Assembly (NCBI RefSeq): GCF_009914755.1
Contig: NC_060932.1
Length of the DNA: 64,000 bases
DNA from: the human T2T-CHM13v2.0 reference genome, Homo sapiens
Direction: 5' to 3' (one strand)
Shown here piece after piece: positions 7,212 to 17,929 of the stretch (position 1 is its first letter; the number at the start of each line of letters is the position of its first letter). The position numbers were made by a program, and so were the translations under genes. Below the pieces are notes generated by a model, which was given only the letters and a program-made list of their open reading frames with translations, searched no databases and had not been told where the DNA came from.

Positions 7212-7321
7212 GTGCTGTACTTCTTTGCAGTATACAAGGACTAGCAGTTAATATTGACCCAATCTTATATACGTGGCTCATCTATCAGCCTCAGAAACGA
7301 ACAAGTAGACATATGCAACAG
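7212..7321 (+). CDS. VPS13B: VPS13B internal coding exon (110 nt, phase 1 to 0; probably exon 20)
   Basis: Acceptor tcttgtcttttag|G and donor CAG|gtaaga. Translates (G)AVLLCSIQGLAVNIDPILYTWLIYQPQKRTSRHMQQ, recognised as VPS13B and in frame with the next exon. Confidence 0.96.
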
Positions 7322-14562: not shown

Positions 14563-14710
14563 CAGCCTGTGGTAGCTGTTCCTCTTGTTATGCCAGTTTG
14601 TAGAAGGAAAGAGGATGAGGTGTCTATTGGAAGTGCCCCCTTGGCAAAGCAGCAATCATATCAGGCCTCTGAATATGCCAGCAGCCCTGTAAAAACAAAA
14701 ACGGTAACAG
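14563..14710 (+). CDS. VPS13B: VPS13B internal coding exon (148 nt, phase 0 to 1; probably exon 21)
   Basis: Acceptor ttttgtctctttccag|CAG and donor CAG|gtatgt. Translates QPVVAVPLVMPVCRRKEDEVSIGSAPLAKQQSYQASEYASSPVKTKTVT, with phases matching both neighbouring exons. Confidence 0.96.
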
Positions 14711-14715
14711 GTATG

Positions 14716-15174
14716 TGTCAAGTACTGTAAAGGGACTATGATTGTACTCTACTTCTAAGCTAGCAAGTTAGCATCCACAATTTCATGGATGCTGGCCAAA
14801 GACATGAGACTCATTGAGTGGAGACAAAGAACTTTATTATCCACAACATTAGCAATAATCACAGTATTAGCATTTTTTTGTGTTAGTGCCCTGAGCCCAG
14901 TTTCCATAAGGTGGCATGAAGAGGGCCAAGAATTCTGAATTTAGGGAACTTGAACCTTTTATAATGGATAGAAAGCATGCCTGCCCTATTCTCCAGAGGG
15001 AGGCGCTGTGTCTCCTTTGCAAGGGTGTGAGCCCACTTGCCCTTTGCACAGAAGCAGGATCGTATTTCTATCTTCTGAGACTGTTCGCTATGCAAATATC
15101 CTTAAAAACACAGTAGGGAACAATGACAATCACCACCTCTACTTAAAAGACCCATAGAGAATTATCTCTCAATA
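14716..15174 (-). mobile_element. ERVL solo LTR (MER73/MER74/MER88/LTR53-like group)
   Basis: Minus strand starts TATTGAGAGATAATTCTCTATGGGTC (recalled consensus TGTTGGGAGACAATTCTCCATGGGTC) and ends CCAGCATCCATGAAATTGTGG...CAGTACTTGACA. 5-bp TSD GTATG at 14711-14715 and 15175-15179. Confidence 0.85.
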
Positions 15175-17929
15175 GTATGTTCCTTCTTTAAGTGAATTCT
15201 TGAAAACGACAGTACACCTTAATCATCTTTCCTCCCCTTTCTCTCATACTCTCTGCTAGATCTTCTATGTAAATATAAAGTATAACTATCCTTCTATAAA
15301 ATAATTTATTTCCTTTTGTGTAATAAAAAGAATTTTACATATATAATTCATCAATATATAATTAAAAAAATAATTTTTATGATTTTATTTTGTGATTTGT
15401 TTTTTCTTCTTAACCTCTAATTTTTATGATGATTGGCTACTTTTCTTTGGGTAATTTTATGTCTTTTCTTTAGCTTTATTTCTTATAACGCAGATATTCC
15501 CAACCACATTGATAAAGATTTTATAGTTTCAGTAAATCAGAACCATCTATCAAGTCTGTTATGGGCAAGACTCTGTTCTAAGTGAAATTGAGGGCAGAAA
15601 TATTAAGAAGATCCCTACCCTTAAAGAATTTAAAATATAATCATATATGCAAGGAAATTCAAATTAGCTATTGTAGTATTTAAGTCGTATTTAACAACCA
15701 AAATGCTAAAATAAATTTGTTTATGGTATTTTATACATAAGTATTATTATTTTGTGCTTTATGATTTTTCCTAAAATATGACATTAATTATGTTTATTTT
15801 GTGGAATCATTAGTCTTCCACCTGTCCATAGCCACAAGCCTTTTACTTTGTTGAGATTTTATCAATTGACAAAAATGCCTGTGCCTCATTTTGTATCACA
15901 AAAAGATTATATAGTTTGTGTTGAGTTTTGATTATAAAATTAAATATTCTTTCCTTTAAATGTCATGTTAAGTTTAAGAGTTAGAGTTTAGGTTTTACAT
16001 AAAGGTTTATAATTGAGCTGTTAATTTACATAAAGGTTTATAAACATCACCTTTTAGTTAAGAAAATAAATGTCCATTAGTGAAAAAAAAATGGTAAGAA
16101 TTACCTTACATGCATGTAAACCATATATTTAAAATAATGGTTAAGGATAATTAACGGTGACAGAAAATGCTTATAATGTAAATGAAAATAGATGATATAG
16201 AACTATTTAGAATATGCAATCACAGATTTTGAAATGCATCTGTATATGCGTGGAAAAGTTTATATGTAAACTCATACCAATCACATATCAATTCATAAAT
16301 GATATCAGTTGATCTGATAATTATTTTGCCTTCTTTATTATACTTTATGTTTTTATAAGAAATTAATAATTGTTAGTGAGGGAAAATAAGCTGAAAACAT
16401 AATTTCTCATCATTAATTACTTTATAAAATATGAAAACATAAACAACACATTTTTTTAATTTTAAATTATTAATCTGAACTATGGTTCTTTTCTTTAGAA
16501 TTAAGGATAATTGCATTTTATGTCTTTGGTGTTCCCCCACCTTTAGAACCATCAGATATCCTATAGATATTCTTCTTATAGATAAGGACATTATTATTTC
16601 ACCAAATGTATATTCTTACTCAAGCTTGCATAAAAATTAATAGGCATCCAACTAATGCTTGTGATTGCCCTGTTTGGTGACTGTGAGCAGTCACCAAAGG
16701 TAAAAGGCCTTGAGTATAACATTTATTGTTTATGAATTCTATTTCTTTCCCTTTGGGTGCCCACTATTTTTAATTCTCTGGGGAACTTGGCAGTGGTACT
16801 CTTCTTGATAATACTCTGTCCTAAACATTTTCTTTACCTAGAATTATGTTTTAACACTTTGTTTTATTTTTAATTAAAGGATACAGTCTTCTTTTTTAGA
16901 ATAAAAATATATTTTATGATTTCTTAGAGTGAGTACATACATCTAAATGTAGTTATCAATCACTGTTTTAATTATTATTTATATTGCATCATAAATTATA
17001 ATGAGTTTGTTAAGGTATTCATAGTCTTTTGCACATCTGCCTACCTTTTTTGGTTGTTGGTTTTTGTTTGTTTTTTAACCATCTTAGCCATTTTCAGTAG
17101 CATTAGGTATAAATCAGTAGCATTAGGTATAATCACATTGTTGTAAAATACACATTTTATTTTTTAACTACATGTTACAGTGGAGAAATGTTAATGTTCA
17201 TTTTATTTCTGAGTTCTTATTAAAATTATTTTTTAAATTTATATCATCACAGCCTATGGTCCAATGTTGATTTTAAGTTCATCCCCAACAAGTTATATAT
17301 AGTGGTTTTGACACATGAATACAAAGACCTGCTGATACTGCACTGGGTTTGATTTTGCTTTTTAATTATTCAGTTAGAAGCAGACCTTTTCCTCTTCCAA
17401 ACTCAGCCAATGTTAAGTGGCTGGCTACAGGGGGACCTGTGCTTGATGGCTCGGAATGTGTTAACAGCAGAATGCCACTATTTCAATGATATAGTCATGT
17501 AGGGCAGACTGAGCCAGAATAAAAACTTGCTGTTCCACATGAAGATAATCTATTATCACAGAATTCTAAATAATCTTCCAGAGAATCTGTATATCCTTCA
17601 AAACAATGAAACCCCTAAGAGCTATGCCATTTGTTTACCCTAGGTTTTGAAATGTTATAAACCTTAATTTGGAATTCTTGATGAAAATGTCTGTGATGGA
17701 GATGAAAACTTAACAAGCAGAATACTCCATAAATGATACTTAAGAGATATAAACCATTTTATCTTACAAGTTTATATATTACTTCTCACGTCAACATAAT
17801 AAATACAGTTAAAATAATAGAAGCCTTTTAAATTTAAGACACCTTGACTATTGCTAAGATAGTAATAAATGAAGACATGTGATAATGATGTAGATTTGGT
17901 AGATAATACTATAAATTCAAAATATAGAA

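What the first reader, a model, noticed from the sequence alone, without database searches (positions are those of the whole stretch)
14711..15180. ERVL LTR inserted exactly into the exon 21 splice donor, with the donor itself as the target-site duplication
Seen: the intron starts GTATG (14711-14715), the LTR starts at intron +6 (TGTCAAG...) and ends at 15174, and GTATG(T) recurs at 15175-15180. Established: ERVL/MaLR integrases make 5-bp TSDs, and LTR ends read TG on either strand. Inference: the ancestral donor was CAG|GTATGTTCC. The integration duplicated +1..+5 and the LTR's terminal T restored +6, so the donor survived intact. All downstream intronic context was displaced by 464 nt and a ghost donor (ATA|GTATGT) was left behind. 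Use of the ghost donor, or read-through, gives G-M-C-Q-V-L-stop, a truncating or NMD product.
Basis: partly seen in the sequence, partly recalled or inferred. Interest (0 to 1): 0.72.

Follow-up and report, generated by a model that had tools for sequence, protein, structure and literature searches.

The report
Old solo LTR abutting VPS13B donor
An ancient retroviral LTR sits only five bases into a VPS13B intron, and the five bases it duplicated on insertion are the splice donor itself, so the donor stayed intact; this is a tidy but ordinary relic with no shown effect.

Summary
The exon ends at 14710. GTATG lies at 14711-14715 and again at 15175-15179, and the 459 bases between them (14716-15174) are one copy of a dispersed, old LTR family.

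- **Boundaries:** copies elsewhere in the genome, delimited without using this copy, match it from exactly 14716 (31 of 35 identical there, against 6 of 35 at 14715). They stop matching after 15174 (28 of 30, against 7 of 30 at 15175).
- **Target-site duplication:** across 30 other copies only the 5-base register is enriched (0 of 2000 permutations reach it), so GTATG is a genuine duplication. Chance of a match at a fixed place is about 0.001.
- **Donor:** the LTR's first T supplies intron +6, so positions -3 to +6 are unchanged.
- **Read-through:** it gives G-M-C-Q-V-L-stop, as stated.

New here: conserved AATAAA and TATAAA motifs lie on the minus strand, so the LTR is antisense to VPS13B. 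The family is very diverged. The exon is c.2935-3082, so the LTR starts at c.3082+6.

Not shown: the name ERVL (only the 5-base duplication class is supported), the empty site in other mammals, and any use of the ghost donor. Most likely this is a neutral passenger.

The parts
14563..14710 (+). VPS13B coding exon of 148 bases, phase 0 start, equal to c.2935-3082.
   Evidence: The hub's gene table gives the exon. It is open only in frame 0. The numbering is anchored on the single in-frame CGA of the window's three exons, which falls at c.2911/codon 971. This agrees with c.2911C>T p.(Arg971*) in PMC7209105 (passage seen).
14711..14715 (+). Intron +1 to +5 (GTATG): the working splice donor and the 5' copy of the target-site duplication.
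   Evidence: The identity of family copies to the window is at flank level here (6-14 of 35).
14716..15174 (-). Solo LTR of 459 bases from an old dispersed family whose full copies are about 500-520 bases. Its sense strand is the window's minus strand, so it is antisense to VPS13B.
   Evidence: Searches give the family and its edges. One search gives the orientation motifs and divergence. One search found no shared internal flank.
14716..14716 (+). First base of the LTR on the plus strand (T). It now serves as intron +6.
   Evidence: The base is T in 31 of 35 family copies. The base after the 3' duplication copy (15180) is also T.
14833..14838 (-). AATAAA on the minus strand: the likely polyadenylation signal of the LTR.
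   Evidence: TTTATT occurs on the plus strand in 22 of 28 copies, and 17 of the occurrences cluster at relative position 0.22-0.26. AATAAA on the plus strand occurs in only 8 of 28 copies and is scattered.
14958..14963 (-). TATAAA on the minus strand, about 125 bases upstream of the AATAAA in LTR sense: the likely TATA box.
   Evidence: TTTATA occurs on the plus strand in 12 of 28 copies, and 10 of the occurrences cluster at relative position 0.53-0.56.
15173..15173 (+). T where most family copies have C, so the canonical terminal CA reads TA in this copy.
   Evidence: None of 30 copies share T here. Of 34 copies, 20 end AACA and 3 end AATA.
15175..15179 (+). 3' copy of the target-site duplication (GTATG). 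With 15172-15174 and 15180 it forms the 'ghost donor' ATA|GTATGT, at c.3082+465.
   Evidence: It matches 5 of 9 positions of the recalled donor consensus, against 8 of 9 for the real donor.
14728..14730 (+). TAA stop reached in the exon's frame if the donor is not used, whether by read-through or by use of the ghost donor.
   Evidence: Translation. An extension to 15174 adds 464 bases, and 464 mod 3 = 2.

Best explanation
An old retroviral element of the class that makes 5-base target duplications, most likely ERV3/class III (ERVL or MaLR), integrated into the VPS13B intron. Its staggered cut spanned intron positions +1 to +5 after c.3082. Repair duplicated GTATG on both sides.

The upstream copy stayed joined to the exon. 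Every LTR starts with T on this strand, and +6 had been T, so the nine-base donor CAG|GTATGT was left letter for letter as before. The element is now a solo LTR of 459 bases in antisense orientation. In that orientation its polyadenylation signal is not read in the gene's transcript.

All earlier intron sequence from +6 onward was pushed 464 bases downstream, together with a weak copy of the donor (ATA|GTATGT). The insertion was tolerated because nothing beyond +6 was indispensable for this donor. Today it is a neutral passenger.

Shown: the sequence, the edges, the duplication length of the family, the frame, and the orientation motifs. Inferred: the order of events, the ancestral state, neutrality and great age.
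For: - The sequence is as described.
- The stretch is a dispersed repeat, with 42 matches from 260 candidates and 40 matches from 273 candidates for the other half of a sister copy.
- The edges are sharp. Identity to the window is 6 of 35 at 14715 and 31 of 35 at 14716. It is 28 of 30 at 15174 and 7 of 30 at 15175. The copy ends were set without the window copy.
- Eleven of 29 loci align from exactly 14716.
- The flanks of 11 near-full copies are unrelated to each other beyond a shared terminal motif.
- The family's duplication is 5 bases. The per-site match is 0.467 against 0.283, and 0 of 2000 permutations reach it. Registers 3, 4, 6 and 7 are at background. The window copy matches 5 of 5, at P about 0.001 for a fixed place.
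- The termini are short (TGT...ACA), and no long terminal inverted repeat joins the two ends among the 25 longest inverted pairs listed of 137.
- TATAAA and AATAAA are conserved on the same (minus) strand about 125 bases apart.
- Divergence is high. Median K2P distance is 0.57 for the window against 27 copies and 0.50 among the others. Local identities are 60-77%.
- Published passages (PMC3088655) say three things. The core donor signal is about 6 intronic bases. Near exons, sense-oriented LTR elements are the more harmful ones. Most TE classes show more antisense elements near donors.
Against: - No genome lacking the insertion could be examined, so the single GTATG join is inferred, not seen.
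- No Dfam or Repbase comparison was possible, so the family has no name here.
- No internal proviral sequence was found next to any copy. None of 49 left flanks and none of 43 right flanks share sequence abutting the LTR. The retroviral nature therefore rests on LTR-like anatomy alone.
- The family signal for 5-base duplications is statistical. Of 30 copies, 5 match 4 of 5, 10 match 3 of 5, 15 match fewer, and none matches 5 of 5.
- This copy's far end reads TA, not CA.
- The orientation rests on two short motifs.
- Neutrality is assumed. No expression, conservation or junction data were available.
Confidence: 0.82

Rival explanations
1. The structure is the same, but the LTR is not a passenger. 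Either the ghost donor at 15175 (or read-through) yields a regular unproductive VPS13B isoform that is degraded, or the LTR sequence next to the donor now supplies intronic signals that this GTATGT donor depends on.
For: The ghost copy of GTATGT is still perfect, although the LTR base just before it has changed and the family is highly diverged. A stop follows six codons into the intron, so any such product would be truncating. Passages of PMC3088655 say that TEs inside the depleted zones near exons join chimeric transcripts more often.
Against: The ghost donor lacks all three exonic consensus positions, matching 5 of 9 against 8 of 9. The real donor lies 464 bases upstream and is unchanged. 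With one copy held by selection as the donor, survival of five bases in the other is not improbable (my estimate is about 0.15-0.3). The hub's table lists no RefSeq functional element. No junction data could be consulted.
Confidence: 0.07
2. It is a true LTR insertion with a 5-base duplication, but it belongs to neither ERVL nor MaLR. It belongs to another LTR group that can make 5-base duplications, such as ERV4-like, an atypical ERV1, or an old Gypsy-like mammalian LTR.
For: PMC4299795 (passage seen) lists 5 bases for both ERV3 and ERV4 and warns that duplication length is not consistent within classes. No ERVL-type internal region was found next to any of the 49 left or 43 right flanks.
Against: In mammals the great majority of very old LTRs with 5-base duplications are ERVL or MaLR (recalled knowledge, not tested here).
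Confidence: 0.1
3. The two GTATG copies are a coincidence. The element arrived by some other route, or its real duplication has decayed, and the donor was never part of the integration event.
For: Five bases is short. GTATG occurs 64 times in the window. Half of the sister copies (15 of 30) show 2 or fewer matches in the 5-base register.
Against: The match sits exactly at edges defined independently by the family. It lies in the only register that the family enriches. P is about 0.001 for a fixed place, and none of the six neighbouring shifts matches.
Confidence: 0.02

Closest known systems
Solo LTRs of class III endogenous retroviruses (ERVL and MaLR) fixed in mammalian introns
   Same: Short TGT...ACA-type termini, 5-base target duplication, a dispersed old family, TATA and polyadenylation motifs on one strand, antisense orientation inside a gene, and no internal region left.
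   Different: The family name and any link to an ERVL or MaLR internal sequence were not established here. The position, starting at intron +6, is about as close to an exon as an LTR can lie without changing the nine-base donor.
Depleted zones for transposable elements near exons (Zhang, Romanish and Mager 2011, PMC3088655; passages seen)
   Same: That paper reports LTR elements under-represented within 2 kb of human exons, a core donor signal of about 6 intronic bases, and sense-oriented LTR elements near exons as the more harmful. This copy lies inside the zone, starts just past those 6 bases and is antisense, so it fits the surviving minority they describe.
   Different: The paper gives distributions, not this locus. 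In the passages I saw it does not discuss a duplication that coincides with the donor.
Disease-causing or mutagenic intronic insertions near splice sites (human Alu and L1, mouse IAP/ETn; as summarised in PMC3088655)
   Same: An insertion within a few bases of an exon edge, which leaves cryptic signals nearby.
   Different: Those insertions disturb splicing and are mostly sense LTRs or lie near acceptors. This one is ancient, antisense, next to a donor that it left unchanged, and sits in the gene's normal reference allele.

Membership tests
LTR of an endogenous retrovirus (solo LTR) | Multi-copy dispersed family with the same sharp edges in unrelated flanks | tested here: met
   Searches gave 42 and 40 matches. 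In one search identity jumps from 6 of 35 to 31 of 35 at 14716 and falls from 28 of 30 to 7 of 30 after 15174.
LTR of an endogenous retrovirus (solo LTR) | Terminal TG...CA dinucleotides | tested here: met
   TG lies at 14716-14717, and G at 14717 is shared by 35 of 35 copies. Twenty of 34 copies end AACA. This copy reads TA at 15173-15174, a single difference from most copies.
LTR of an endogenous retrovirus (solo LTR) | Target-site duplication of fixed short length | tested here: met
   Only the 5-base register is enriched (0.467 against 0.283; 0 of 2000 permutations reach it; 30 copies). The window copy matches 5 of 5.
LTR of an endogenous retrovirus (solo LTR) | U3-R-U5 signals: a TATA box and a polyadenylation signal on the same strand | tested here: met
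   Minus-strand TATAAA occurs in 12 of 28 copies and AATAAA in 22 of 28, each clustered at one relative position about 125 bases apart. This is motif-level evidence only.
ERVL / ERV3 (class III), including MaLR | 5-base target duplication | tested here: met
   The rule comes from PMC4299795 (passage), which also says it is not exclusive.
ERVL / ERV3 (class III), including MaLR | Some copies flank an ERVL-type (pol, dUTPase) or MaLR-type internal region | tested here: inconclusive
   None of 49 left flanks and none of 43 right flanks share sequence abutting the LTR. Among the 82 places listed I saw no pair of copies at proviral spacing. The second fragment near L018 is only about 170 bases. The sample is limited to the best-scoring copies.
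ERVL / ERV3 (class III), including MaLR | Match to a named Dfam or Repbase LTR consensus | not testable with these tools
   No repeat library is held, and window.fa carries no soft-masking.
Alternative or cryptic 5' splice site in use | Splice junctions from 15174 to a downstream exon | not testable with these tools
   No RNA-seq or EST data are held. Consensus match is 5 of 9.

The most novel reading that the evidence does not exclude
This LTR marks the closest position at which an LTR can enter an intron and leave the donor untouched. If it is shared across placental mammals, it would be a natural experiment of about 100 million years showing that this VPS13B donor needs nothing beyond +6. 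In addition, the perfectly kept ghost donor 464 bases downstream might be used at a low level, or after donor variants at c.3082+1 to +5, to give a truncating, degraded isoform relevant to Cohen syndrome.
Probability: 0.07. Interest if true: 0.45.

Novelty: new member of a known kind. Interest (0 to 1): 0.25.

Why it matters
The finding is mainly a clean teaching case. It shows at single-base resolution how a target-site duplication can rebuild a splice donor, and why an antisense LTR can survive inside the zone next to exons where such elements are normally removed.

For VPS13B (Cohen syndrome) it adds a small practical point. Variants at c.3082+6 and beyond lie in LTR sequence. A second GTATGT sits at c.3082+465 and could be tried by the spliceosome if the real donor is damaged. 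Any such product stops after six codons, the same loss of function as exon skipping, so the clinical reading would hardly change.

My rough arithmetic uses recalled totals of about 700,000 LTR-class copies in 3.1 Gb and about 200,000 donors. It suggests that uniform insertion would put some tens of LTR edges at any given intron position, and fewer after selection. The arrangement should therefore be rare but not unique. This was not computed here.

Tried and rejected
- **Other copies in the window:** none. One search gave only chance hits of 12-27 bases, so inverted pairing within this intron is not at issue.
- **Proviral partners:**
  - The all-against-all comparison of 3-kb loci returned 80-87% identical matches of up to about 300 bases. 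I took these for Alu elements, unverified, and it gave no internal sequence.
  - A stricter test of flanks abutting the LTR gave 0 pairs among 49 left and 43 right flanks.
  - The second hit near L018 proved to be a fragment of about 170 bases, 1.5 kb away.
- **Repeat mask:** window.fa is all upper case, so NCBI's mask could not be read. The hub's list of longest masked stretches does not include 14716-15174, which I cannot explain without the mask.
- **Literature:**
  - VPS13B with 'intron 21' gave 1 paper, not relevant.
  - VPS13B with 'c.3082' gave 0 papers.
  - VPS13B with 'exon 21' and 'Cohen syndrome' gave 2 papers, neither relevant by the listing.
  - A first search for the ERVL/MaLR duplication rule gave 0 papers, and a second found PMC4299795.
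  - These searches cover only the held open-access library.
- **A reference error:** one reference copy (L011) was started 2 bases late. The four loci whose 5' edge depended on it (L002, L006, L013, L039) were dropped before the count, leaving 30 of 34. L011 was removed as a reference.
- **Splice-site scoring:** no MaxEnt-type tool is held, so I counted only matches to the recalled consensus.

Full report
**What is in the sequence.**
One search shows the VPS13B exon ending ...ACAG at 14710. The intron starts GTATG (14711-14715), followed by TGTCAAG... from 14716. Further on...CTCAATA ends at 15174 and is followed by GTATGT (15175-15180). The two GTATG copies are 464 bases apart. From window composition, GTATG at a fixed place has P about 0.0012. 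The pentamer occurs 64 times in 64000 bases, and none of the six neighbouring shifts (-3 to +3) matches.

**Is the stretch between them a repeat with those edges?**
A search of the window's own genome with 14650-15250 gave 42 matches from 260 first-look candidates, of which 40 were scored, so these are lower bounds. A sensitive re-alignment of 29 fetched loci to 14600-15300 started at exactly 14716 in 11 loci and at 14712-14719 in 24. The other five started at 14707, 14709, 14740, 14740 and 14768.

An alignment of 11 near-full copies with their flanks showed a shared terminal motif at the far end, in line with 15174, with unrelated sequence beyond it. A second genome search, using the far half of a sister copy, gave 40 more matches from 273 candidates.

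For the sharpest test I set the ends of the copies with four reference copies other than the window. I then compared each copy to the window without gaps, anchored at those ends.
- 5' edge: copies identical to the window number 6 of 35 at 14715, 31 of 35 at 14716 and 35 of 35 at 14717.
- 3' edge: the counts are 29 of 30 at 15172, 0 of 30 at 15173, 28 of 30 at 15174 and 7 of 30 at 15175.
- Averages: mean identity is 0.28 and 0.33 in the flanks and 0.67 inside.

Position 15173 is T in this copy only. Of 34 copies, 20 end AACA and 3 end AATA, so the canonical terminal CA reads TA here.

**Is GTATG a target-site duplication?**
In one search, 34 copies had both ends located. I dropped four whose 5' end depended on a reference that I had started 2 bases late, leaving 30. 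In these I compared the bases before and after the element in registers of 3 to 7 bases.
- Only the 5-base register is enriched. The per-site match is 0.467 against 0.283 for permuted pairings, and 0 of 2000 permutations reach it.
- Registers 3, 4, 6 and 7 give 0.32, 0.28, 0.22 and 0.31, all within the permutations.
- The distribution at 5 bases is: 5 copies with 4 of 5, 10 with 3, 6 with 2, 8 with 1, and 1 with 0.

The family therefore makes 5-base duplications, and the window copy, at 5 of 5, is the best preserved in the sample. That is not odd. One of its two copies is held by selection as a splice donor, so only the other has been free to decay. I estimate the chance of five bases surviving at about 0.15-0.3 (inference).

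**What kind of element is it?**
The ends are short (TGT...ACA). No long terminal inverted repeat joins the two ends among the 25 longest inverted pairs listed of 137.

Across 28 copies of 400-600 bases, two motifs are each clustered at one relative position.
- TTTATT on the plus strand is present in 22 copies, with 17 of the occurrences at relative position 0.22-0.26.
- TTTATA is present in 12 copies, with 10 of the occurrences at 0.53-0.56.
- AATAAA on the plus strand is present in 8 copies and is scattered.

Read on the minus strand, this is a TATAAA followed about 125 bases later by AATAAA, with about 120 bases to the end. That is the usual U3-R-U5 layout. The LTR's sense strand is therefore the window's minus strand, and it is antisense to VPS13B. 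This orientation rests on motifs only.

In general, a 5-base duplication is the mark of ERV3/class III elements. ERV1 makes 4 bases and ERV2 makes 6. The same source lists 5 bases for ERV4 too, and warns that the rule is not strict (PMC4299795, passage seen).

I could not name the family, because no repeat library is held and window.fa carries no masking. I found no internal proviral sequence. No flank abutting the LTR is shared among 49 left or 43 right flanks. I saw no pair of copies at proviral spacing among the 82 places listed. The second hit near L018 is a fragment of about 170 bases. 'ERVL' is thus supported as a class-level guess and no more.

**Age.**
Median K2P distance is 0.57 between the window copy and 27 others, and 0.50 among the others over 351 pairs. 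Local alignments run at 60-77% identity. Alignment error inflates the first figures, and selection of best hits flatters the second.

Either way the family is very old. By recalled yardsticks it is comparable to the mammal-wide repeats. I infer that the insertion predates or accompanies the radiation of placental mammals, but this was not tested.

**Consequences for the gene.**
The exon is open only in frame 0, and the three exons of the window join in one open frame. Read-through from 14710 gives G-M-C-Q-V-L and then TAA at 14728-14730. An exon extended to 15174 would carry that stop and add 464 bases (464 mod 3 = 2).

For numbering, the preceding exon (7212-7321) was taken to end at c.2934, from my recall. 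The only in-frame CGA in the window's three exons then falls at c.2911, codon 971. This agrees with c.2911C>T p.(Arg971*) reported for VPS13B in PMC7209105 (passage seen). The exon is therefore c.2935-3082, the LTR starts at c.3082+6, and the ghost donor is at c.3082+465. The number 'exon 21' was not verified.

The real donor CAG|GTATGT matches 8 of 9 positions of the recalled consensus CAG|GTAAGT. The ghost ATA|GTATGT matches 5 of 9 and lacks all three exonic positions.

An LTR starts TG on this strand. An insertion one base nearer the exon would therefore put T at +5 in place of the conserved G. The observed position is thus the nearest one that leaves -3 to +6 unchanged (inference from the sequence).

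**Comparison with what is known.**
Zhang, Romanish and Mager (PMC3088655, passages seen) report the following.
- LTR elements are under-represented within 2 kb of human exons.
- The core donor signal is about 6 intronic bases, against 20-50 at acceptors.
- Sense-oriented LTR elements near exons are the more harmful.
- Most TE classes show more antisense elements near donors.

This copy is just what their survivors should look like: antisense, on the donor side, and starting immediately past the core signal. It is a striking example of a known kind and does not represent a new kind.

My searches found no paper on this locus. They cover only the held open-access library.

**What remains open.**
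The ancestral empty site, the family name, and any use of the ghost donor or effect of the LTR on splicing all remain open.

Noticed in passing
window 14930-14940 and about 15150: Relative to 9-10 of the 11 sister copies aligned, the window's LTR lacks about 44 bases after 14934 and about 19 bases near 15150. This explains its 459 bases against about 500-520 in full copies, and why many local alignments stop near 14930.
   Followed up: partly
window 14706-14716 and 15170-15180: The exon end plus donor reads AACAG|GTATGT. The LTR end plus duplication reads AATA|GTATGT here and AACA| in 20 of 34 sister copies. So the two junctions resembled each other over four more bases than the duplication. 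I take this as coincidence between an exon ending in CAG and an LTR ending in CA.
   Followed up: no
window 14717-14718 against 15181-15182: Intron +7 and +8 changed from T,C (the old context, now at 15181-15182) to G,T (LTR). By recalled U1 pairing rules, G and T could pair weakly with the U1 end where T and C could not, so the insertion may have slightly lengthened the possible U1 duplex. This is untested.
   Followed up: no
position +2 after the LTR in sister copies (aligned to window 15176): The second base after the LTR is T in 18 of 30 copies, against about 35% T in the window's composition. This may reflect a weak target preference of the integrase or AT-rich landing sites.
   Followed up: no
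loci (for example L033, L036, L039, L047, L049): Many genomic matches to the far half of sister copy L025 begin only at query positions 115-139 and run to the end. This suggests a related subfamily or a second LTR family that shares just the last 150-175 bases or so, which is the U3 start in LTR sense.
   Followed up: no
L024 (G000:C4:58094874-58098062), oriented 1119-1501: One sister LTR is split by a later insertion of about 380 bases. That insert also occurs in L006 and L016 at 77-79% identity, so it is another repeat landing inside the LTR.
   Followed up: no
window 15290-15480: The old intron sequence displaced by the LTR runs into a very AT-rich, low-complexity stretch with several short direct and inverted repeats.
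   Followed up: no
window 14716-15174 against the hub's mask list: A 459-base repeat masked as one stretch would rank among the 20 longest masked stretches listed by the hub, several of which are 336-350 bases. It is not listed. NCBI's mask may cover it only in pieces or not at all, which would fit its high divergence.
   Followed up: partly
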